Source of the DNA: an uncultured Acidobacteriota bacterium
GTDB taxonomy: Bacteria; Acidobacteriota; Vicinamibacteria; Vicinamibacterales; UBA2999
NCBI GenBank assembly: GCA_963841905.1
Contig: CAWJEM010000022.1
Coordinates: forward strand, 92,835 to 156,834
Length of the DNA: 64,000 bases
Reading direction: 5' to 3'
Position 1 is the first letter of the stretch; each line of letters opens with the position of its first letter. The notes beneath the pieces are model-generated. The model was not told where the DNA came from. It searched no databases and worked only from the letters and a program-made list of their open reading frames with translations. Below are positions 6,773 through 39,767 of this stretch, one piece after another. The position numbers and the translations under genes are program-made.

Positions 6773-7729
6773 ATGCCAGAACTGACGGTCATCTTTCGCA
6801 CCGCGTCCAACATCGAGGCCAGCATCGTGCAGGCCCTGCTCGACAGCCACGGCATCGAGTCGGTGCGCACCTCGGGTCCGCCGGCGTCGCTGTTTCCCTT
6901 CACCGTCAACCCGATGGGCGAGACGTGCGTCTCAGTGCGGGAAGACGACGGACCCGAGGCGGTGCGGATTATCGAGAGCCATCGCGAAGAGGTGAGTGGC
7001 GGTTTGGTGGTACCGCTCCCGCAGCAATTTGCCGCGCTCGAGCTGCGAATCGGGTATCGCTTTCGCGATCGCGGGCTGCTCGAACACGCTCTCACTCACA
7101 AGTCCAAGGCGCATGAAGATCCAAGCGGGGGAGTGATGGACAACGAGTCGCTCGAATTCCTGGGCGACGCGGTCCTGGGGTTGGTGATAGCCGACGCGCT
7201 GTGCCGGGTCTTCCCGCGGTCCACCGAAGGTCAGAAGTCGAAGATCAAGGCCACGATGGTGTCCACCGCGTCGCTGGCGGAGCTCGCGGAACGCTTGCAG
7301 CTCGGCGACCACATGATTCTGGGTCGCGGCGAGGAAAAGACCGGGGGGCGCCGCAAGCAGGCGCTGCTGGCCGACACCTGCGAGGCGCTCATCGCCGCGA
7401 TTTACATCGACGGGGGACTCGAACCGGCGCGTCAGTTCCTGATGCGCGAGATGGGCGAGGCGGTCGAAGCCGCTGGCCAACCCGACTACCTGGGCCGCGA
7501 CCACAAGTCGCGGCTACAGGAAGTGCTCCAGGCGCTTGGGCGTCCGCTCCCGATCTACCGCATCGCTGGTGAAGCAGGCCCCGAACACCGCAAGATGTTT
7601 CACGTCGAGGTCGTCGTGTCGGGCGAAGTCATCGCGCAGGGCGTTGGCCGCACCAAGAAGGACGCGGAGCAGGAAGCCGCGAAAACGGCCCTGCTCGGGC
7701 TGACGGGCAACGCTAACGACGCGGAGTGA
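6773..7729 (+). CDS. rnc: Ribonuclease III with an N-terminal DUF2007-like extension of about 85 aa
   Basis: C-terminal 230 aa: GYRFRDRGLLEHALTHKS...NESLEFLGDAVLGLVIAD...DTCEALIAAIYIDGG...KSRLQEVLQ...GPEHRKMFHVEVVV...GRTKKDAEQEAAKTAL. The N-terminus LTVIFRTASNIEASIVQALLDSHGIESV...CVSVREDDGPEAVRIIESH resembles DUF2007. Confidence 0.9.
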   Translation: MPELTVIFRTASNIEASIVQALLDSHGIESVRTSGPPASLFPFTVNPMGETCVSVREDDGPEAVRIIESHREEVSGGLVVPLPQQFAALELRIGYRFRDRGLLEHALTHKSKAHEDPSGGVMDNESLEFLGDAVLGLVIADALCRVFPRSTEGQKSKIKATMVSTASLAELAERLQLGDHMILGRGEEKTGGRRKQALLADTCEALIAAIYIDGGLEPARQFLMREMGEAVEAAGQPDYLGRDHKSRLQEVLQALGRPLPIYRIAGEAGPEHRKMFHVEVVVSGEVIAQGVGRTKKDAEQEAAKTALLGLTGNANDAE

Positions 7730-7736
7730 TTCGCAA

Positions 7737-7826
7737 CAGTTACAAGTTACAAGTTACGAGTTACAAGTTTGAGTTGTCAGTTTCAAGCGCTTTGAACCTG
7801 TAACTTGGAACTTGTAACTTGTAACT
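7737..7826. repeat. Heptamer array hairpin: (GTTACAA)n left arm, (TTGTAAC)n right arm
   Basis: gttacaa gttacaa gttacga gttacaa gtttgag... cgc ...ctgtaac ttggaac ttgtaac ttgtaac, between convergent rnc (stop 7729) and the ATPase gene (stop 7842). Confidence 0.9.
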
Positions 7827-7841
7827 ATCTCGAACCTCCCC

Positions 7842-8966
7842 TCAATCAATCTCGATAATGCCCCACCCTTTGCGTTCGGCGCCGGCGGTGACCATGGCGA
7901 GTGAGGGTTCTGGCTGCGGGAGGCGCGAGAGCGCGTAATTTTGAACCTCGCGCGCGACCTCGTCGACTCCGGGCGGGACGGGGCGGCAGTGGAGACGGAC
8001 CCACAGACGGAGCAGCGGGTCCGAGAAGCTGTATCGCTTTTGCCGCGACACGACGAGGTCGACGTCCTCCAGCCACGAGAGGTAGTCCTTGGTCGAACCC
8101 GGTGTGCGCTGCAGGCGCAGCGCGATCTCGGTCAGTGTCAGCGGTTCTTCCTCGGCGAGGATTTCCAGGATCGCTTTGAGCGCCCCGTAGCCGCGCGCGC
8201 GATGCAGGCGAATCTCGTAGCGATAGCCACACCATGCGGTGAGCGCGCCGTCCGAGGTCAGCAGGGCGGTGAGCGCAGAGATGGGATCGCCGGCCCGGCC
8301 GCTGACGCCGGCACTGGCTTCGCTGATCGCGTGCACGTAGGCAGCGCGGCCATCGGCCAGCGCTTGAATCGTTCGACTGAGGAACTCGCGATCCTCAACG
8401 CCCGCTTCGCCCATCGGCGGCAGCATGGCGGTCACTTCGCTCGGTGAAAGCGCCGGCAGATGAATCACCTCGAATCGGGGCGAGCCATCGCGCAAGAGGC
8501 GATGCGCACGGGCCACGTAGCGTGAGGTCAGGACGAACCGGTTGCCGCTCTCCGCCAGCGCCTGCAGCAGTTCGCGCAGCACGTGGCGCAGCCCGGGGAA
8601 GCTCTCGAACGTCCGCAGCTCGAGGACCTCGTCCAGCAGGATGGTGGCCGGGCGATTGGCACTCGTGGCATGCGACAAGTAGGACAGCGTGAGCTCGAAC
8701 GCCTCGCGCGCCGAGCGCGGACTCTCGGCGGCGAGGAGTGGAAACGGCGACACGGCCGTGACGGCGCGGAAGAAGCGCTCCGGGGTGCTGGCGGAGCGTT
8801 CGACATCGATGTACTGGCACTGGTCGCCGCCCAAGCGCTCGGCCAGTGAGTGCATCGCCGTGGTTCGACCCGTACCGCACCCACCCAGAACGACCGGAAT
8901 GCGAGGCGGCGTGGCCTCGAGTGCGGAGATGAGCCGCCGCTCGAGCCCGGCATGAGGCGCCATCAT
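7842..8966 (-). CDS. ATP-binding protein (archaeal-type AAA ATPase/DUF234-like) with a C-terminal winged-helix region
   Basis: 374 aa. The P-loop [17 protein letters not shown] has Arg where the Walker A Lys is usual. Walker B-like ATILLDEV. C-terminal [38 protein letters not shown] overlap with the hutU stop. Confidence 0.6.
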
Positions 8967-10629
8967 CGTCGTGTCTCCACCATCGGAATACGTACAGCCC
9001 GCTCACCTGCCGTGCGCAGCGCGTCTGCATATCCAGCGTCCGCGTGACGTGCAACGCCCAGCCCAGGATCGCACGTCAGCACTCGCTCCAGGCGCTCATC
9101 GGCTTCGCGCGAACCATCGGCAACAATCACCATCCCGGCATGAATGGAATAACCAATCCCGACGCCGCCGCCATGATGCACGGACACCCAGGTGGCTCCG
9201 GCGGAGGCGTTGAGCAGCGCGTTGAGGATTGGCCAGTCGGCAATCGCATCGCTCCCGTCACGCATCCCCTCGGTTTCGCGGTTGGGCGACGCAACGGATC
9301 CCGCATCCAGGTGATCGCGACCGATGACAATCGGCGCCTTGACCTCGCCACGTCGAACCAGCTCGTTGATCCGCAGTCCGAAACGAGCGCGGTCGCCATA
9401 CCCTAACCAGAAGATTCTGGCCGGCAGGCCCTGGAACGCGACCCGCTCACCGGCAAGGCGAATCCAGCGGCAGAGGGCCTCGTCATGGGCGAACATCTCC
9501 AGGGCCGCACGATCGGTCACGAAAATGTCTTCGGGGTCGCCTGACAATGCCGCCCACCGGAACGGTCCTTTCCCCTCGCAGAACAGCGGGCGGATGTATT
9601 CGGGCACGAATCCTGGGATTGCAAAGGCGTCTGCGACGCCGGCACGAGCCGCCTGGGCTCGAAGATTGTTCCCGTAGTCGAACGCCACCGCGCCACGCCG
9701 CTTCATCTCCAACATCGCCGTCACGTGAACGCCCATGGCGGCGACGGAGCGTCGTTCGTACTCCGCCGGGTTCGACGCGCGCAGCGCATCGGCGGCCGCG
9801 AGTGACAACCGATCCGGCACGTAACCCGTGAGCGCATCATGGGCCGACGTCTGATCGGTGACGATGTCAGGCGTCACTCCGCGACGTACAGCTCCGGGAG
9901 GACTTCGGCGGCGTTGCCCAGGAGTCCAATCGATCGCGCTTCTCGGGCCTGTTGCCAGGCGCGCACCCGTTCCAACGCGATCTCGATGTCTGTCGTCCAC
10001 TCATCCAAGTAGCGCGAGGCCACACGACGCTCGATACGCTTGGGGTCGATTTCGACGATCAGCGCGACGCCCTCGTTCATCGTGACGGCGAGCGGCTGGG
10101 CCCCGCCCATCCCACCCAGCCCGGCGGTCACCGTGAGCGTTCCCGCGAGGCTCCCGCCAAAGTGGCGGCGGGCGATGGCCGCCAGGGTCTCGTAAGTGCC
10201 CTGGAGGATGCCCTGCGTGCCGATATAAATCCAGCTGCCGGCCGTCATCTGGCCGTACATCGTGAGGCCACGGTCTTCGAGGTCTCGAAACGTTTCCCAG
10301 GTCGCCCACTTGGGAACCAGATTGGCGTTGGCGATCAGGACGCGGGGCGCATGGGCGTGGGTCCGGAACACCCCGACGGGCTTGCCGGACTGCACCACCA
10401 GCGTCTGGTCATCGGCGAGATGCCGCAGCTCGTGAACGATCGCGTCGAAGGCGGGCCAACTGCGCGCCGCCCGCCCCGTGCCGCCGTACACCACCAGATC
10501 ATCCGGACGTTCGGCCACCTCGGGGTCGAGGTTGTTCATCAACATTCGGAGCGCCGCTTCCTGGAGCCATCCCTTACACGTCAGCGACGTGCCACGGGGT
10601 GCGCGGACCAGACGAGCGGCAGTCGTCAT
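8963..10629 (-). pseudogene. hutU: Urocanate hydratase, frame broken by one missing base near 9889
   Basis: ORF 9874..10629 ([40 protein letters not shown]...[12 protein letters not shown]) and ORF 8963..10000 ([17 protein letters not shown]...[15 protein letters not shown]...) together make a full HutU. Reading gagctg[g]tacgtcgcggagtgacgcct restores ELVRRGVTP. Confidence 0.9.
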
Positions 10630-10724
10630 CGAAGGAGTCGTACGGAGGGCGAACGTGAAGCTAAGAAACTAAGCAGCGTGCCTCGCCTTGTCAATCGAAA
10701 TTGCAATCGACGATGATCACTAAA

Positions 10725-12239
10725 TCAGTTGACAACGACGCCGGAGGCGTACTCAAGTGTGCGGGACTGAATCATCTCAGCGATTCGATCGAGATCAGGA
10801 GCCGGCGGCCGATCATCCCCCAGCATCGCGACGTGTTGACGCACCGCCGCATGCACCTGCATCAGTGAATCGGATGATGCGAGCGGCGACAGCAAGTCGA
10901 TCGCCTGGCACGCACACAAGACCTCGACGGCGATCACGTTGATCGCCAGCTGCAAGGCGCGTTCCGCCTTCAGGGCCGCGGCCATGCTCATGCTGACATG
11001 ATCTTCCTTGTTCGCCGACGTCGGAATCGTGTCGACGCTGGCGGGATGGGCCAGTGTCTTGAGCTCGGAGGTGAGCGCGGCGGCCGTCACCTGGGCGATC
11101 ATCAAGCCCGAGTGCAGCCCGCCGTGCCGAGTGAGGAAGGCTGGCAGGCCGCTCAGCGCCGGGTTGACGAGGCGTTCGGAGCGTCGTTCGCTGATCGTCG
11201 CCAGCTGGGTGAGTGCGATCACCAGCAGATCGGATGCCACGGCCACTGGCGCGCCGTGAAAGTTGCCGCCCGAGACGATTTCGCCGGCCTCGGCGAAGAC
11301 CATCGGATTGTCGGTCGCTGAATTCATCTCGATGCGGATGACGTTGTGAACCCACGTGAGCGCGTCGCGCGCCGCACCATGGACCTGAGGCGCACATCGC
11401 ATCGAATAGGCATCTTGAACCCGACCGCAATTGGCGTGCGCCCGATTGATGCCGCTGCCGGTAATGAGCCGGGTAAGGTTGTCCGCGACCGTCCGTTGTC
11501 CCGCGAACGGTCGAGCCTCGTGAATCCGCCCTTCGAACGGCCGAACCGAGCCCTGAAGGGCATCGATGGAGAGGGCAGCGGCGACGTCGGCCGCCCGAGC
11601 GAGCCGTTCGGTGCCGGCGACGGCCAGCGCCGCGACCGCCGTGGACACTTGCGTGCCGTTGATGAGCGCGAGCCCTTCTTTCGGGCCCAGCACGACCGGC
11701 TCAATCCCCGCCTCGTCGAGCGCCTGTTTCGCGGGACGGGTCTCGTGACCGTCCCACACCTCGCCTTCGCCAATCAACACGAGCGCCATGTGTGCGAGCG
11801 GCGCGAGGTCGCCGCTGGCGCCGACCGATCCGCGACTGGGCACGCGAGGATGCACGCCGCGGTTCAACGCCGTGACGAGCGTGTCGAGCGTCTCGAGTCG
11901 GATGCCTGAAAAACCTTTGGCGAGGACGTTGGCGCGCAGGGCCATGGCCGCCCGCACGGCACGAATCGGCAGGGGCTTGCCGACACCGGCAGAGTGACTG
12001 CGGAGCAAGTTGATTTGGAGCTGCGCCACGTCCTCGCGCGGGATTCGTGTTTCAGCGAAAGAGCCAAACCCGGTGTTGACTCCATAGATCGGACGGTCGC
12101 CATCGGCCAGTGCATCGACGACGCGGCGAGCGGCTTGCACTTGCGCGCGCGCGTCCGGCGTGATGGCGATCGGCTCGCGCCCATCGGCGATGGCCACGAG
12201 TTGGTCGATGGTCAGGTCGTGGCCGTTCAATTCGATCAT
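10725..12239 (-). CDS. hutH: Histidine ammonia-lyase
   Basis: 504 aa, PIYGVNTGFGSFA...SRGSVGASGDLAPLAHMAL (ASG MIO motif)...NGTQVSTA...DAYSMRCAPQVHGA. Confidence 0.95.
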   Translation of the reverse strand: MIELNGHDLTIDQLVAIADGREPIAITPDARAQVQAARRVVDALADGDRPIYGVNTGFGSFAETRIPREDVAQLQINLLRSHSAGVGKPLPIRAVRAAMALRANVLAKGFSGIRLETLDTLVTALNRGVHPRVPSRGSVGASGDLAPLAHMALVLIGEGEVWDGHETRPAKQALDEAGIEPVVLGPKEGLALINGTQVSTAVAALAVAGTERLARAADVAAALSIDALQGSVRPFEGRIHEARPFAGQRTVADNLTRLITGSGINRAHANCGRVQDAYSMRCAPQVHGAARDALTWVHNVIRIEMNSATDNPMVFAEAGEIVSGGNFHGAPVAVASDLLVIALTQLATISERRSERLVNPALSGLPAFLTRHGGLHSGLMIAQVTAAALTSELKTLAHPASVDTIPTSANKEDHVSMSMAAALKAERALQLAINVIAVEVLCACQAIDLLSPLASSDSLMQVHAAVRQHVAMLGDDRPPAPDLDRIAEMIQSRTLEYASGVVVN

Positions 12240-12257
12240 GTCACGACAATGATAATG

Positions 12258-13822
<1,565 letters not shown>

Positions 13823-13827
13823 CGCGC

Positions 13828-13937
13828 GAAGTTACAAGTTACAAGTTACAAGTTCAAAGTTCAATTGAAGGAGACTACCGCAGCGCGAGCCAACTCGCGA
13901 GCGCTGTTTGGAACTTGTCACTTGTCACTTGTAACTC
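13828..13937. repeat. Heptamer array hairpin of the GTTACAA family
   Basis: gttacaa x3, gttcaaa, gttcaat ... inner small hairpin cgcgag-ccaa-ctcgcg ... ttggaac ttgtcac ttgtcac ttgtaac. Lies between the purA stop and the ABC ATPase start. Confidence 0.9.
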
Positions 13938-13979
13938 TGCCTTCTGATCTCGCGTCGTCAAACGCAGTAGGATCGACAG

Positions 13980-14918
13980 GTGTCGCTCGAGTCGCTTGCC
14001 GTGCGTTGTCGCGGCGTCATCAAACGCTACGGCGACGTGACCGCCGTCGACGGCCTCGACCTCGATGTGGAGCGGGGCGAGTGCTTCGGCTTGCTGGGAC
14101 CGAACGGCGCCGGGAAGACAACGTCGATCGAAATTCTCGAAGGGCTGCTGGCCGCCGATTCCGGCGATGTCCAGGTCCTGGGTCGCAGCTGGCAGACCGA
14201 TCGCGCGTGGCTTCGTGCCCGCCTCGGTATTCAATTGCAGGAGACCCAACTCGCCGACAAGCTGACCGTCGCCGAAACGTTGTCTCTATTCCGTTCGTTC
14301 TATCCAGACGGCCCGACGGTCGATGAGCTGCTGGCGACCGTCGAACTCGGAACCAAACGAGACAGTTGGGTCGTCAAGCTCTCCGGCGGTCAGAAGCAGC
14401 GACTGTCGGTGGCGTGTGCCATGGCCGGCAAGCCCGATCTGTTGTTTCTCGACGAGCCGACAACCGGACTGGATCCGCAGTCGCGGCGTCAGCTCTGGGG
14501 CGTGCTCGAGCGGTTCAGCGAGACGGGCGGGACGATTCTGATTACAACGCATTACATGGACGAAGCGCACGCGCTGTGCGATCGCGTGGGAATCATGGAT
14601 CTCGGAAAGTTGATCGCGCTCGGCACTCCGACAGCCCTTGTTGCCGGCCTTGGCGCCCAGCACGTCGTCGACTTTGCCGTGGCCGACCCGACGCGCCTGC
14701 CGGCTGATGACCGGTTGCGGGCGTTGCCTGGCGTGACCGAAGTGCGGCACAACGACGAGGCGGTGTCGCTGGCGACCGCGGAGGTGCATCGCGCGTTGCC
14801 GGCATTGCTCGACCTGGTGCGCGAGCATCAGGTTGACCTCAGTCTCTTGACGACGCATAGCGCGACGCTCGAAGACGTGTTCGTGGCGCTCACCGGCCGT
14901 CACCTTCGCGAAGCCTAG
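13980..14918 (+). CDS. ABC transporter ATP-binding protein (ABC-2/DrrA-like exporter)
   Basis: GLLGPNGAGKTTSIEIL (Walker A), LSGGQKQRLSVACAM (signature), LLFLDEPTTGLD (Walker B). GTG start. Confidence 0.9.
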   Translation: MSLESLAVRCRGVIKRYGDVTAVDGLDLDVERGECFGLLGPNGAGKTTSIEILEGLLAADSGDVQVLGRSWQTDRAWLRARLGIQLQETQLADKLTVAETLSLFRSFYPDGPTVDELLATVELGTKRDSWVVKLSGGQKQRLSVACAMAGKPDLLFLDEPTTGLDPQSRRQLWGVLERFSETGGTILITTHYMDEAHALCDRVGIMDLGKLIALGTPTALVAGLGAQHVVDFAVADPTRLPADDRLRALPGVTEVRHNDEAVSLATAEVHRALPALLDLVREHQVDLSLLTTHSATLEDVFVALTGRHLREA

Positions 14919-24386: not shown

Positions 24387-24455
24387 AGCACGGAAACACG
24401 GAACATCGGAAGTGTCGTTTTGTGCCTACTGTGGCTTCCGCCTTAAGGCGGAAGC
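24387..24455. repeat. CACGGAA heptamer array followed by the hairpin GCTTCCGCC-TTAA-GGCGGAAGC
   Basis: agcacggaa acacggaa catcggaag directly after the TetR stop, then a 9-bp perfect stem at 24434-24455 whose arms match the unit (CGGAAG/CTTCCG). Confidence 0.8.
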
Positions 24456-24618
24456 TACGCGTGGTTCGCTTTGCGGCCCAGGTGGCTCCGCGATCGCAAT
24501 TTTGAAGTAGCGGCGCTGCACTCGCGTGCGACAAAGGCGAATGATCAAACCCAGGGTTTCGGACGAAGCCGTACAGCGCGCAACTGGACGGGCTTGGGCT
24601 GAATGGTGCCGGCTGCTT

Positions 24619-24806
24619 TAGTCAGTGATCAGTGATCGGTGATCCGGTGATCCGTGATCAGTTAACGACTGACCACGGACCACCGACCACCGACCGGACC
24701 ACGACCGACCACTGACCACCGACCACCTGACCACGGACCACCGACCACTGACCACCGGACCACGGACCACTGACCACTGACCAGGGACCACCGACCTAGT
24801 CAGTGA
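24619..24806. repeat. GTGATCA/GACCAC(C/T/G) array: about 42-nt left arm and about 130-nt right arm
   Basis: gtcagtgatcagtgatcggtgatccggtgatccgtgatcag ttaac gactgaccacggaccaccgaccaccgacc...(about 18 units). TAGTCAGTGA occurs at both ends (24619-24628 and 24797-24806, the latter overlapping the TauE stop). Confidence 0.85.
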
Positions 24807-30218: not shown

Positions 30219-30261
30219 GAAACGGGCCTCAGCCTCATGACAAGCGGCTGAGGCCCGTTTC
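30219..30261 (+). terminator. Intrinsic terminator-like hairpin (16-bp perfect stem) followed by GTTT
   Basis: gaaacgggcctcagcc-tcatgacaagc-ggctgaggcccgtttc gttt, 17 nt after the aminotransferase stop. Confidence 0.75.
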
Positions 30262-30270
30262 GTTTAGGTG

Positions 30271-30366
30271 AGGCCCACGGCCTACGGTCCACGGTCGACG
30301 GCCCACGGTGCTGGCGAGGTTCGCTGAGGCTCTTCCGTGGACCGTGGACTGTGGACCGTGGACCTC
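30271..30366. repeat. Heptamer array hairpin of the GGTCCAC/GGCCCAC family
   Basis: ggcccac ggcctac ggtccac ggtcgac ggcccac ggtg ... ccgtgga ccgtgga ctgtgga ccgtgga cc. Confidence 0.9.
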
Positions 30367-34502: not shown

Positions 34503-34540
34503 CGAGCGAGGGCTCCGCCTCGCTCGTCGACTATTTTGTT
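34501..34540 (+). terminator. Intrinsic terminator: 11-bp stem plus T-rich tail
   Basis: gacgagcgagg-gctccg-cctcgctcgtc followed by gactattttgttt. It starts at the M20 stop codon. Confidence 0.75.
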
Positions 34541-34640
34541 TGCCCCGCCTCCGCCACCCCGTCACGCAGAAAACGCGTGGCGGGGGCCCCGGGGTCCCCA
34601 CCGCGCGGACTTTGCGCGGTGGGGTGGTTCCGGCGGGGCA
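34541..34640. other. GC-rich nested-hairpin element (possible structured RNA or repeat)
   Basis: The outer pair tgccccgcc (34541-49) / ggcggggca (34632-40) encloses ccgccac...gtggcgg, ggggcccc and ccaccgcgc-ggacttt-gcgcggtgg. Confidence 0.5.
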
Positions 34641-34661
34641 GTCGCCTTGACGGAGCAAAAT

Positions 34662-36133: not shown

Positions 36134-36145
36134 CATGGCCGCGAG

Positions 36146-36208
36146 CTGACCACTGATCACGGACCACGGACCACGGATCACGGATCACTGATCACGTGAT
36201 CACTGACC
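36146..36208. repeat. GATCACG/GACCACG heptamer array ending in the palindrome TGATCACGTGATCA
   Basis: ctgaccactgatcac ggaccac ggaccac ggatcac ggatcac tgatcac gtgatcac tgacc, 13 nt after the GNAT stop. Confidence 0.85.
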
Positions 36209-36419
36209 TTCATGAACACACTCGCGCGCACGGCGGCACCCGACTATCGTGCCTCGATGGCATCGCCCACGACCGCCGAGCAAACGATCGCCCGCTTTCG
36301 GGACAAGCCGCTCGACTTCGTCCACCAAGCGCTAGCGAGGCTCCGCCTCGGACCGTCAAGCATGTGCGATGCGGCTCCGCCTCGCTAGGGCAGTGTTTGC
36401 TTGCCCGCCTCCGGCGGGC

Positions 36420-36485
36420 AGACGTCTTGAAGGCAGTGCGGAGAAGCTTGACTCGTTTGCACGGGTTATGGTCTTCAAGACGTCT
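36420..36485. promoter_or_regulatory. 13-bp perfect inverted repeat AGACGTCTTGAAG-N40-CTTCAAGACGTCT upstream of the amidase gene
   Basis: Arms at 36420-36432 and 36473-36485; the amidase ATG is at 36527. Confidence 0.4.
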
Positions 36486-36526
36486 AGAACGTCAGTGGGC
36501 GTGTGCTTCACGTAAGATAGGGCGCG

Positions 36527-39253: not shown

Positions 39254-39302
39254 AGGGATAGACGTACAGGCCTCAGAGACTCAGGGACACAGAGAAGACT
39301 TG

Positions 39303-39377
39303 GCACGGAAGCACGGGAACACGGAAGCACGGAACGGTGCCGCGCGGAGGATCCGTTCTTCCGGCTGAAGGCGGAAG
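39303..39377. repeat. CACGGAA heptamer array plus a CTTCCG...CGGAAG hairpin
   Basis: gcacggaa gcacggga acacggaa gcacggaa cgg ... ccgtt cttccg gctgaagg cggaag. Same architecture as 24387-24455. Confidence 0.8.
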
Positions 39378-39392
39378 AGTTGGAGGATAGGA

Positions 39393-39767
39393 ATGCAATC
39401 GAAGTGGGTGACAGCTGGAATCATCGCGGCGGTGTTTGCGGCCGGCGTGGGGGTCGGGGCGCTGCAGCAGCAGGCTCAAACGCGACGCGAGCCGCAGTTC
39501 GAAAACGAGCACGTCAGCGTCTGGAAGTCGATCATCCTGCCCAATCAGCCGCTGGCGCTGCATCGACACGACCTCGGCCGCACGATCGTCGCGCTCAAGG
39601 GCGGCACGCTCGACGTCGTCGACGCCGCCGGCAAGACGATGAAGCAGATGACATGGGAGTCGGGCAAGGCCTATTGGCTCGGGCCGGATTCGGCCGGCGA
39701 GCAGCACGGTGACATGAACCGGGGCAAGGAGCCGATCGAAGTCATCGTTGTTCAGATGAAGAAGTAG
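39393..39767 (+). CDS. Small cupin-like protein with an N-terminal signal/anchor
   Basis: 124 aa. MQSKWVTAGIIAAVFAAGVGVGA...VSVWKSIILPNQPLALHRHDLGRTIVALKGGTL...EVIVVQMK. GGAGGA RBS. Confidence 0.5.
   Translation: MQSKWVTAGIIAAVFAAGVGVGALQQQAQTRREPQFENEHVSVWKSIILPNQPLALHRHDLGRTIVALKGGTLDVVDAAGKTMKQMTWESGKAYWLGPDSAGEQHGDMNRGKEPIEVIVVQMKK

What the first reader, a model, noticed from the sequence alone, without database searches (positions are those of the whole stretch)
7737..7826. (GTTACAA)n / (TTGTAAC)n hairpin between convergent rnc and ATPase genes
About 7 left units and 4 right units surround a 3-4 nt centre (..ttcaag cgc tttgaa..). The structure starts 8 nt after the rnc stop and ends 16 nt before the opposing stop. 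It is AT-richer than its surroundings and has no U-tract. It looks like a bidirectional terminator made purely of a tandem heptamer.
Basis: seen in the sequence. Interest (0 to 1): 0.6.

Follow-up and report, generated by a model that had tools for sequence, protein, structure and literature searches.

The report
Heptamer-repeat hairpin, one of many copies
The hairpin after the RNase III gene is real, but it is one copy of a fast-changing family of repeat-built hairpins that fill gaps between genes in this soil acidobacterium, a kind already described in Xanthomonas and cyanobacteria, and nothing shows it to be a purpose-built terminator.

Summary
Window 7738-7826 holds (AGTTACA)-type units facing (TTGTAAC)-type units. 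It folds as a roughly 36-bp stem on either strand (-45 and -49 kcal/mol, z = -7), is about 40% GC in a 63.5% GC genome, and has no U-tract.

It is not a one-off.
- **Family size.** The genome, an uncultured soil Vicinamibacterales MAG, has about 62 copies with the same architecture and about 270 inverted-array hairpins of other units.
- **Occupancy.** Arrays of 6-14-nt units occupy 32% of convergent gaps, 16% of co-directional gaps and 17.5% of divergent gaps.
- **Relatives.** The rnc/ATPase arrangement is conserved in 11 genus members, but the gap is not. Three species have 13-22 nt and no hairpin, and others carry hairpins of different units.
- **Turnover.** Array-bearing gaps are 54% identical between two genomes whose array-free gaps are 95% identical.
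- **Position.** Family members also sit in operon-like spacers a few bases before called start codons.

The best reading is a dispersed, hypervariable repeat whose RNA effects are at most incidental.

The same class is published for Xanthomonas, Nostoc and Beggiatoaceae. This scan had already noted it in this genome and in one other genome.

The parts
6773..7729 (+). rnc (RNase III: catalytic domain plus dsRNA-binding domain, with a weak DUF2007-like N-terminal extension)
   Evidence: Pfam PF14622 E 8.5e-34, PF00636 E 2.1e-22, PF00035 E 2.8e-18, PF09413 E 5.5e-05 which is below its cut-off. Orthologues at 78-98% identity in 10 other genus members, split or frameshifted in G010.
7730..7737 (.). 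8-nt spacer between the rnc stop and the element
   Evidence: Together with 7827-7841 it leaves 23 nt, about the size of the hairpin-free gaps (13-22 nt) in G004, G009 and G011.
7738..7786 (.). Left arm: four clean AGTTACA-type units (7738-7765) plus three degenerate inner units (AGTTTGA, GTTGTCA, GTTTCAA)
   Evidence: The inner stretch GTTGTCAGTTTCAAG matches GTTTTCAGTTCAAAG at the orthologous locus of G008.
7787..7790 (.). Centre of the palindrome (GCGC). In the minimum-energy fold the loop is shifted to about 7778-7786 because the arms are unequal.
7791..7826 (.). Right arm: TTTGAAC, CTGTAAC, TTGGAAC, TTGTAAC, TTGTAAC, T (five units)
7827..7841 (.). 15-nt spacer before the stop codon of the opposing gene
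7842..8966 (-). Convergent P-loop NTPase gene (weak NACHT/AAA_22 hits plus a winged-helix hit)
   Evidence: Pfam PF05729 E 1.1e-05, PF13401 E 4.2e-04, PF13412 E 6e-04, all below their cut-offs. Syntenic and convergent with rnc in all 11 genus genomes that have rnc.
13829..13936 (.). Second copy of the same family in the window, downstream of the gene at 12533-13822, with a GC-rich inner hairpin as core
   Evidence: In G005 the same site holds only AAGTTAC|TTGTAACT.

Best explanation
The element is one nearly core-less copy of a dispersed family of hairpin repeats. The family architecture is (AGTTACA)~4, AGTTCAAAG, a variable core, CTTTGAACT, (TGTAACT)~4. That family is one of many short-unit (6-14 nt) array hairpins that colonise intergenic gaps in this Vicinamibacterales genus.

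Shown here:
- It is a family member with sharp ends and no target-site duplication.
- It lies in what is a 13-23-nt gap in relatives that lack it.
- The gap's content is replaced, resized or lost between close relatives far faster than ordinary intergenic DNA changes.
- Copies of the family are found in all three gap types, including operon-type spacers.

Inferred:
- The family spreads and is homogenised at the DNA level. Whole hairpin units are copied or converted into short gene-end-proximal gaps, and replication slippage changes unit number.
- Copies survive best where insertion does least harm, which explains the two-fold excess in convergent gaps.
- When both convergent genes are transcribed, each mRNA would end in, or read into, a roughly 36-bp imperfect stem. 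That stem may slow RNA polymerase, block 3' exonucleases or be cut by RNase III. I regard those effects as incidental, not as the reason the element is there.
For: - **Family.** 271 inverted-array loci against 15 direct-direct pairs, and 62 with the AACTTGT-type unit sharing the same inner AGTTCAAAG/CTTTGAACT motif. The probe gives 124 hits in G000 against 0 for its reversed control. Arm length is fixed at 4.15 +/- 0.73 and 4.02 +/- 0.70 units. Cores of about 65 nt and a CTGCGGCGCC hairpin module recur at several loci in either orientation, which independent in-situ growth cannot produce.
- **Dispensable and hypervariable.** The orthologous rnc/ATPase gap has AGTTACA units in G000, CCAGTTR in G005 (rnc 98% identical), NNCAGTT in G008, an 8-mer ATCTGGTG in G001 and a CAGATCAC array in G003. 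G004, G009 and G011 have nothing in 13-22 nt. Between G000 and G005, array-bearing gaps have median identity 0.54 (n=11) against 0.95 for array-free gaps (n=21), p = 2e-4. Unit families were swapped outright at gaps 16000, 19789 and 42583, and the arrays at gaps 13823 and 3298 are collapsed in G005.
- **Insertion into a short spacer.** In G010 a copy sits in the yggS-divIVA spacer. That spacer is 22 nt in G000, and 8 + 16 nt remain around the G010 element.
- **Position.** Element edges lie a median of 6 nt from stop codons. There are 21 convergent, 33 co-directional and 7 divergent copies. In co-directional gaps the residual gap has a median of 24 nt and the start codon lies a median of 14 nt downstream.
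- **No copy-specific pairing.** Cognate and non-cognate arms pair equally well, -32.5 against -33.1 kcal/mol, and unit variants on one arm are not mirrored on the other.
- **Published parallels.** The same behaviour is reported for Xanthomonas (GGGANTN)n inverted pairs (PMC4692102) and for the Nostoc trnL P6b heptamer hairpin (PMC4476775).
Against: - No enzyme or mechanism of spread was identified. The two Y1/RAYT genes have their own unrelated REPs, and no viral contig carries the unit.
- At one orthologous locus (G000 C24:116416 against G008) both arms stay nearly perfect although the flanks are only 81% identical. That needs either selection on the unit or continuing homogenisation.
- In co-directional gaps the sense-strand RNA fold of this family is slightly more stable than the antisense fold (21 against 10 copies, p = 0.026). 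This is a weak hint of RNA-level selection.
- Canonical intrinsic terminators are rare here, at 1.0% of genes, so some other 3'-end signal must exist. Convergent gaps are enriched two-fold for these arrays.
- Gene starts come from my own crude caller.
Confidence: 0.78

Rival explanations
1. Bidirectional, U-tract-independent transcription terminator. The long stem forms in both convergent transcripts and releases or stalls RNA polymerase, insulating rnc and the ATPase gene from each other.
For: The element lies 8 and 15 nt beyond two convergent stop codons and folds strongly on both strands. Arrays are twice as common in convergent gaps as in others: 32% against 16-17.5%. Canonical terminators follow only 1.0% of genes, so another signal is needed. 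There is a marginal sense-strand bias of fold stability in the family. Five of 11 genus members have a significant hairpin in this gap, from at least two unrelated unit families.
Against: There is no U-tract and the stem is AT-rich. G004, G009 and G011 manage with 13-22-nt gaps, and the G002 and G007 gaps fold no better than shuffles. 24 of 33 co-directional family copies lie within 18 nt of the called downstream start, with no room for a promoter, including a verified yggS-divIVA case in G010. Seven copies are in divergent gaps. GC-hairpin modules inside copies are not consistently oriented with the upstream gene. Arm mismatches are not compensated.
Confidence: 0.12
2. Array of binding sites for a sequence-specific DNA- or RNA-binding protein. 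The conserved AGTT (AACT) core is repeated every 7 nt, as was proposed for the TAACTGA repeats of Beggiatoaceae and as is known for REP/BIME binding of gyrase and IHF.
For: Units keep a 4-nt core and vary at 3 positions: AGTTNNN in G000, G005 and G008 at the same locus. Xanthomonas shows the same pattern, (GGGANTN)n. TAACTGA read on the other strand is TCAGTTA, the CAGTTAT unit seen in G008. The same AGTTACA/AGTTCAA units occur in distant low-GC organisms. Arms stay perfect at one locus despite 19% flank divergence.
Against: The genome uses dozens of unrelated units, which would need many proteins or none. Unit families are exchanged at a locus with no change in the neighbouring genes. No candidate protein was found or tested.
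Confidence: 0.06
3. rnc-specific autoregulation. The long double-stranded 3'-UTR stem is a substrate of the RNase III encoded immediately upstream, so the enzyme trims and destabilises its own mRNA.
For: A stem of about 36 bp exceeds the length RNase III needs (established knowledge of the enzyme). It directly follows rnc. E. coli rnc is autoregulated through a stem in its own leader (established knowledge).
Against: The adjacency needs no special explanation, because a third of convergent gaps hold such arrays and 6 of 8 convergent gaps in this window do. The hairpin is absent downstream of rnc in G004, G009, G011 and G007.
Confidence: 0.03

Closest known systems
Inverted heptamer arrays of Xanthomonas, (GGGAATC)n/(GGGANTN)n, and the Nostoc GGGGAYT repeats (Rehm et al. 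2015, PMC4692102)
   Same: Tandem 7-nt units with a conserved core and variable positions. About 180 loci per genome, 70-75 of them as closely spaced pairs on opposite strands able to form stem-loops. Intergenic and nearer to the upstream ORF. Extensive length and sequence variation between close species. Function unknown.
   Different: One G-rich, quadruplex-prone unit dominates there. Here there are dozens of unit families, the unit in question is AT-rich, and the host is a different phylum (Acidobacteriota). Here whole-family replacement at one locus and shared cores are documented.
P6b stem-loop of the Nostoc tRNA-Leu(UAA) intron (PMC4476775)
   Same: A hairpin whose two arms are built from degenerate 7-nt motifs (TDNGATT or NNTGAGT). 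It changes length by 7-nt indels, acquires nested side hairpins, and has repeatedly had one repeat class replaced by the other.
   Different: It is a single locus inside a structured intron, where the stem has a defined RNA context. Here there are hundreds of intergenic loci.
TAACTGA direct repeats of marine Beggiatoaceae, cyanobacteria and Bacteroidetes (MacGregor 2015, PMC4679880), and the STRR/long simple-sequence-repeat heptamers that paper cites (Mrazek 2007)
   Same: Heptamer arrays, intergenic, patchy across phyla, unexplained. TAACTGA is the complement of TCAGTTA, close to the CAGTTNN/AGTTACA units here. Low-GC metagenome contigs carry AGTTACA/AGTTCAA as direct arrays just upstream of a gene.
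   Different: Those are almost all direct repeats (169 direct sets, 1 inverted) placed just before start codons. Here the arrays are mostly inverted pairs placed just after stop codons.
REP / BIME / REPIN elements (PMC3733652, PMC3116915, PMC2817692)
   Same: High-copy extragenic palindromes, favoured at gene 3' ends and between convergent genes. Proposed roles are termination, mRNA stabilisation and protein binding. No target-site duplication.
   Different: REPs are 20-40-bp unique palindromes with a GTAG/CGTC tag, mobilised by a RAYT that they flank. Here the arms are tandem arrays, no tag is present, and the genome's two RAYT-like genes are flanked by other REPs.
Rho-independent (intrinsic) terminators, including bidirectional ones
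   Same: A stem-loop just downstream of stop codons that folds on both strands.
   Different: No U-tract, an AT-rich stem three times the usual length, and not conserved at orthologous gene ends.

Membership tests
Short-unit tandem-repeat hairpins (Xanthomonas/Nostoc heptamer arrays, STRR-type) | Head-to-tail 7-nt units with a conserved core and variable positions | tested here: met
   AGTTACA, AGTTACG, AGTTCCA and AGTTGCA variants occur. The orthologous loci use AGTTNNN.
Short-unit tandem-repeat hairpins (Xanthomonas/Nostoc heptamer arrays, STRR-type) | Many intergenic loci per genome, rare in coding sequence | tested here: met
   271 inverted-array loci. Arrays cover 7.3% of non-coding bases against 0.46% of coding bases.
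Short-unit tandem-repeat hairpins (Xanthomonas/Nostoc heptamer arrays, STRR-type) | Closely spaced arrays on opposite strands that can form a stem-loop | tested here: met
   Folds with z = -7.1 on both strands. 291 inverted against 15 direct pairs genome-wide.
Short-unit tandem-repeat hairpins (Xanthomonas/Nostoc heptamer arrays, STRR-type) | Length and sequence hypervariable between close relatives | tested here: met
   Median identity is 0.54 for array gaps against 0.95 for array-free gaps, G000 against G005. The rnc gap differs in every genus member.
Rho-independent terminator | Short GC-rich stem-loop | tested here: not met
   The stem is about 36 bp at about 40% GC.
Rho-independent terminator | U-tract immediately 3' of the stem | tested here: not met
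   The tail is AUCUCGAACC on the + strand and GUUGCGAAUC on the - strand. No terminator-like call.
Rho-independent terminator | Structure conserved at orthologous gene ends | tested here: not met
   Gaps of 13-22 nt without a hairpin in G004, G009 and G011. z is about 0.4 in G002 and G007.
Rho-independent terminator | Transcript 3' ends at the base of the stem | not testable with these tools
The organism is an uncultured MAG.
REP / REPIN | Cognate RAYT (Y1 transposase) flanked by the same repeat | tested here: not met
   Two PF01797 genes are present. They are flanked by GGGGACAGTCCCC and CTTCCGCCTAAAGGCGGAAG hairpins, not by heptamers.
REP / REPIN | Conserved GTAG or CGTC tag at one end of a 20-40-bp palindrome | tested here: not met
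   Ends are (A)AGTTACA...TGTAACT(T). The flanks show only a weak symmetric G at -3 and C at +3. Elements are 66-136 nt long.
MITE | Target-site duplication flanking terminal inverted repeats | tested here: not met
   44 of 62 copies have no flanking direct repeat. The rest have 1-3 nt, as chance would give.
MITE | Parent autonomous element with the same termini | tested here: inconclusive
   56 of 70 left arms pair within 200 nt. The four 'far' pairs were not examined in detail, and at least the C11 case looks like a solo arm next to a complete element. No transposase was seen between arms, but the intervals were not examined gene by gene.

The most novel reading that the evidence does not exclude
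The array hairpins may be products of an as-yet unknown targeted DNA process, not passive slippage. Four things point that way. Whole units land within a few bases of stop codons without target duplication. Interiors are exchanged while the outermost unit pair is kept (gaps 13823 and 42583). Arms of different families can be joined in one gap. The same AGTT-core heptamers turn up in Acidobacteriota, in low-GC bacteria and, per the literature, in Beggiatoaceae, cyanobacteria and Bacteroidetes. If so, in a genome where only 1% of genes have canonical terminators, they might also serve as the general RNase III-processed 3'-end or insulator signal.
Probability: 0.12. Interest if true: 0.75.

Novelty: new member of a known kind. 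Interest (0 to 1): 0.35.

Why it matters
For this locus, it means rnc should not be annotated as having a special bidirectional terminator. The hairpin is a copy of a common repeat. For the class, the data add a new phylum and some sharp comparative facts to a phenomenon that has been described several times but never explained:
- about 54% against 95% identity at 5% genome divergence;
- a filled-versus-empty site in an operon spacer;
- interiors exchanged inside a retained outer unit pair;
- no RAYT link;
- no arm-to-arm compensation.

These repeats fill a third of convergent gaps and break alignments between close genomes. They therefore matter in practice for assembly, for strain typing, and for any attempt to define transcription-unit ends in Acidobacteriota.

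Tried and rejected
- **Rfam.** No match at E <= 1 in 7000-14500.
- **Consensus scan.** No terminator or promoter call at the element.
- **Copy-specific compensation.** Cognate and non-cognate arms pair equally. Variant units are not mirrored between arms, Fisher p 0.13-0.9. I therefore dropped the idea that each hairpin is individually maintained by selection or by arm-to-arm templating.
- **Embedded terminators.** The GC hairpin + TTTG modules inside copies are not consistently oriented with the upstream gene in the 5 co-directional cases detected.
- **Target-site duplication.** None.
- **RAYT link.** None.
- **Excision footprints.** G000 has no 1+1-unit palindromes like the one in G005, so a common excision cycle is not supported.
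- **Nesting as a rule.** Only one strictly called nested case. The other examples are partial.
- **Phage vector.** 0 hits in viral contigs.
- **rnc-specific role.** Rejected as the main reading because such arrays are very common in convergent gaps.

Full report
**Observation.**
- The window at 7738-7826 reads AGTTACA, AGTTACA, AGTTACG, AGTTACA, AGTTTGA, GTTGTCA, GTTTCAA, GCGC, TTTGAAC, CTGTAAC, TTGGAAC, TTGTAAC, TTGTAAC, T.
- TRF reports both arrays and the repeat finder reports the inverted pair.
- It starts 8 nt after the rnc stop and ends 15 nt before the stop of the convergent gene.
- As RNA it folds at -44.9 kcal/mol on the + strand and -48.8 on the - strand, z = -7.1 each.
- The 21-mer occurs 7 times in the window against 0.00 expected.
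- GC drops to about 0.40 against about 0.65-0.70 in the flanks.
- No T-run follows the stem, and the consensus scan calls nothing there.
- rnc is a bona fide RNase III gene. The opposing gene is a P-loop NTPase with weak NACHT/AAA and winged-helix hits.

**It is a family member.**
- The window lies in a 5.58-Mb, 63.5% GC, 24-contig genome. It is an uncultured soil Vicinamibacterales (Acidobacteriota) MAG, judged by the titles of its nearest relatives.
- Genome-wide, TRF finds 271 loci where a short-unit array (period mostly 7, 8, 9 or 13) is followed within 150 nt by the array of the complementary unit. Only 15 direct-direct pairs occur.
- The commonest unit is AACTTGT/AGTTACA. Its 62 loci share one architecture: (AGTTACA)3-5, AGTTCAAAG, a core of 5-70 nt, CTTTGAACT, (TGTAACT)3-5, with sharp outer ends.
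- Arm length is narrowly fixed, at 4.15 +/- 0.73 and 4.02 +/- 0.70 units.
- Cores recur at several loci in either orientation. Examples are a roughly 65-nt module and a CTGCGGCGCC-N4-GGCGCCGCAG hairpin. Whole elements have therefore been copied between loci and did not grow independently.
- The copy in the finding is a nearly core-less one. Its extra left-hand degenerate units match the inner layer of other copies.
- The second copy in the window (13829-13936) shares arms and inner motif with it but not flanks.

**Where the copies sit.**
- I made rough gene calls: 4,633 genes, 85.7% coding.
- The 62 copies split into 21 convergent, 33 co-directional, 7 divergent and 1 intragenic. All gaps in the genome split 741, 3,130 and 738.
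- Element edges lie a median of 6 nt from stop codons.
- Arrays of 6-14-nt units occupy 32% of all convergent gaps (46% of those of at least 40 nt), 16% of co-directional gaps and 17.5% of divergent gaps. They cover 7.3% of non-coding DNA against 0.46% of coding DNA.
- A hairpin after rnc therefore needs no special explanation.
- In the 33 co-directional cases the gap left after subtracting the element has a median of 24 nt (73% are 40 nt or less). The downstream start is called within 18 nt in 24 cases. There is no room for a promoter, so those genes must be transcribed through the element. The caveat is that my start calls are crude.
- One case is verified. In G010 a copy sits 16 nt upstream of the divIVA start in the yggS-divIVA spacer. 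That spacer is 22 nt and empty in G000.

**The orthologous gap.**
- rnc and the NTPase gene are convergent neighbours in all 11 genus genomes that have rnc. The gap between them differs in every one.

| Genome | Gap content |
|---|---|
| G000 | AGTTACA hairpin, 112 nt |
| G005 (rnc 98% identical) | 112-nt hairpin of CCAGTTR units with an added GC-rich outer stem |
| G008 | NNCAGTT units |
| G001 | 8-mer ATCTGGTG hairpin |
| G003 | short CAGATCAC form |
| G010 | roughly 400-nt GAACNNN element |
| G002 | GC-rich 40-nt tandem repeat |
| G007 | 50 nt, unstructured |
| G004, G009, G011 | only 13-22 nt |

- Folds are significant in G000, G005, G008, G001 and G003 (z from -4 to -11) and not in G002 or G007.
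- G000, G005 and G008 share the inner AGTTCAAAG...CTTTGAACT, so their common ancestor already had an element. The outer units have since changed in concert on both arms.
- The 8 + 15 nt of unique spacer in G000 match the size of the empty gaps.

**Rate and mode of change.**
- Across the window, G005 is about 95% identical to G000, and BLAST alignments break at the array loci.
- Array-bearing gaps have median identity 0.54 (n = 11). Array-free gaps have 0.95 (n = 21), p = 2e-4.
- Individual loci show several modes of change.
  - Collapse to a single outer unit pair: gap 13823, where G005 has AAGTTAC|TTGTAACT.
  - Replacement of the interior inside a retained outer pair: gap 42583, where G000 has GGTTACA[AGGGCRY array]TGTAACT and G005 has a full GTTACAA element.
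  - Outright exchange of unit family: gaps 16000 and 19789.
  - Change in copy number: gaps 40556 and 55468.
- Other loci are stable. C18:94005 is identical in G005, and C24:116416 keeps near-perfect arms in G008 despite 81% flank identity.
- Some gaps join arms of different, non-complementary families.
- Within G000, cognate arms pair no better than arms from different copies, and variant units are not mirrored. So there is no sign that each hairpin is individually kept paired.

**Distribution.**
- The 25-mer probe hits G000, G005, G006, G008 and G010. It hits none of the 7 other genus members or the 19 other family and order genomes searched.
- The exact 29-mer is in 44 soil and groundwater metagenome contigs and in no viral contig.
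- Most of those contigs are relatives, at 68-97% nucleotide identity.
- Three contigs (L054, L071, L075) have 35-42% GC and L076 has 54% GC. Their proteins are only 27-38% identical to the best G000 hits. One of them carries a direct array of 15 AGTTACA/AGTTCAA units just upstream of a gene.

**Mechanism of spread.**
- There is no target-site duplication.
- The two Y1/RAYT-type genes in the genome are flanked by their own unrelated REP hairpins.
- No parent element was seen.
- The mechanism of spread therefore remains inferred: copying or conversion of whole hairpin units, plus slippage.

**Terminator question.**
- Canonical GC-stem + T-tract terminators follow only 1.0% of genes, against 0.2% mid-gene. 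The genome must therefore end transcripts in other ways.
- That fact, the two-fold convergent enrichment, and a marginal sense-strand bias in fold stability (21 against 10 copies, p = 0.026; no bias in other families) keep a weak RNA-level role alive.
- The placement before start codons, the divergent-gap copies, the missing U-tract, and the hairpin-free orthologous gaps argue against an efficient or dedicated terminator.
Rfam has no match.

**Comparison with the literature.**
- The same kind of element is published.
  - Xanthomonas (GGGANTN)n arrays. There are 70-75 inverted pairs, nearer the upstream ORF and hypervariable between species (PMC4692102).
  - The Nostoc trnL P6b hairpin, built of 7-nt motifs. 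It shows 7-nt indels, nested side hairpins and repeated class replacement (PMC4476775).
  - TAACTGA repeats in Beggiatoaceae, cyanobacteria and Bacteroidetes. The complement of that unit resembles the units here. The paper cites heptamers as the commonest long simple repeats in bacteria (PMC4679880).
- I found no paper describing them in Acidobacteriota.
- Earlier notes of this scan had already recorded the class in this genome, and the GTTACAA unit in another genome. I treated them as leads and re-derived the points used here.

**Verdict.** This is a real, non-random hairpin, correctly described. It is a routine copy of a known but unexplained class of hypervariable repeat hairpins, not a bespoke bidirectional terminator.

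Noticed in passing
window 30219-30261: A classic bidirectional-type terminator: GAAACGGGCCTCAGCC, a loop, GGCTGAGGCCCGTTTC, then GTTT. It keeps its structure with different sequence in G008, directly beside a heptamer array (30272-30364) that is not conserved. It makes a useful internal contrast between a conserved terminator and a non-conserved array.
   Followed up: partly
window 34503-34646: A GC hairpin plus T-rich tail (CGAGCGAGG..CCTCGCTCG, then TATTTTGTTTG) is conserved in G000, G005 and G008. G000 alone has an extra GC-rich insertion of about 66 nt just after it.
   Followed up: no
G000 C24:224439-225053 and C4:161880-162389 (outside the window): Two Y1 (RAYT/IS200-type) transposase genes, each flanked by its own REP hairpins (GGGGACAGTCCCC; CTTCCGCCTAAAGGCGGAAG). 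The second REP family has expanded in G005 at the site orthologous to window gap 39254-39407.
   Followed up: partly
L071 (metagenome contig Ga0310695_10001970, 35% GC), positions about 224-348: A direct array of about 15 AGTTACA/AGTTCAA units (read on the complementary strand) lies just upstream of a gene whose N-terminus looks like a glycosyltransferase (judged by eye, not tested), in an organism unrelated to this genus. L054 and L075 (39-42% GC) carry an imperfect hairpin of AGTTACA against CTGCAAC units.
   Followed up: partly
window 6773-7729, residues 7-69 of RNase III: The RNase III has an N-terminal extension of about 90 residues with a sub-threshold DUF2007 match (E 5.5e-05, 23.7 bits against a cut-off of 25.7). 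The extension is conserved in length across the genus.
   Followed up: no
L015/L016 (G010:C34, about 183852-184779): The rnc orthologue of G010 matches in two pieces in different frames (residues 2-138 and 135-310). This suggests a frameshift or an assembly error. It is followed by a roughly 400-nt GAACNNN repeat hairpin.
   Followed up: no
window 24387-24795 and 36134-36526: Large composite array regions (409 and 393 nt) whose G005 counterparts are 926 and 1,130 nt. These are the largest size differences in the window.
   Followed up: no
G000 C11:624138, C21:132894, C24:628046, C16:335399, C11:405581: Gaps whose two arms belong to different, non-complementary unit families, for example GCACCNN on the left and TGTAACT on the right. 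Arms can therefore be gained or replaced one at a time.
   Followed up: partly
L091 (metagenome relative of G000 C16:242326-243817): A complete GTTACAA element lies in the centre of a CTCAGAGA/TCTCTGTG 8-mer hairpin. At the same site G000 has GTTTCCGT-type units in the centre. The outer layer is the same and the inner element differs.
   Followed up: partly
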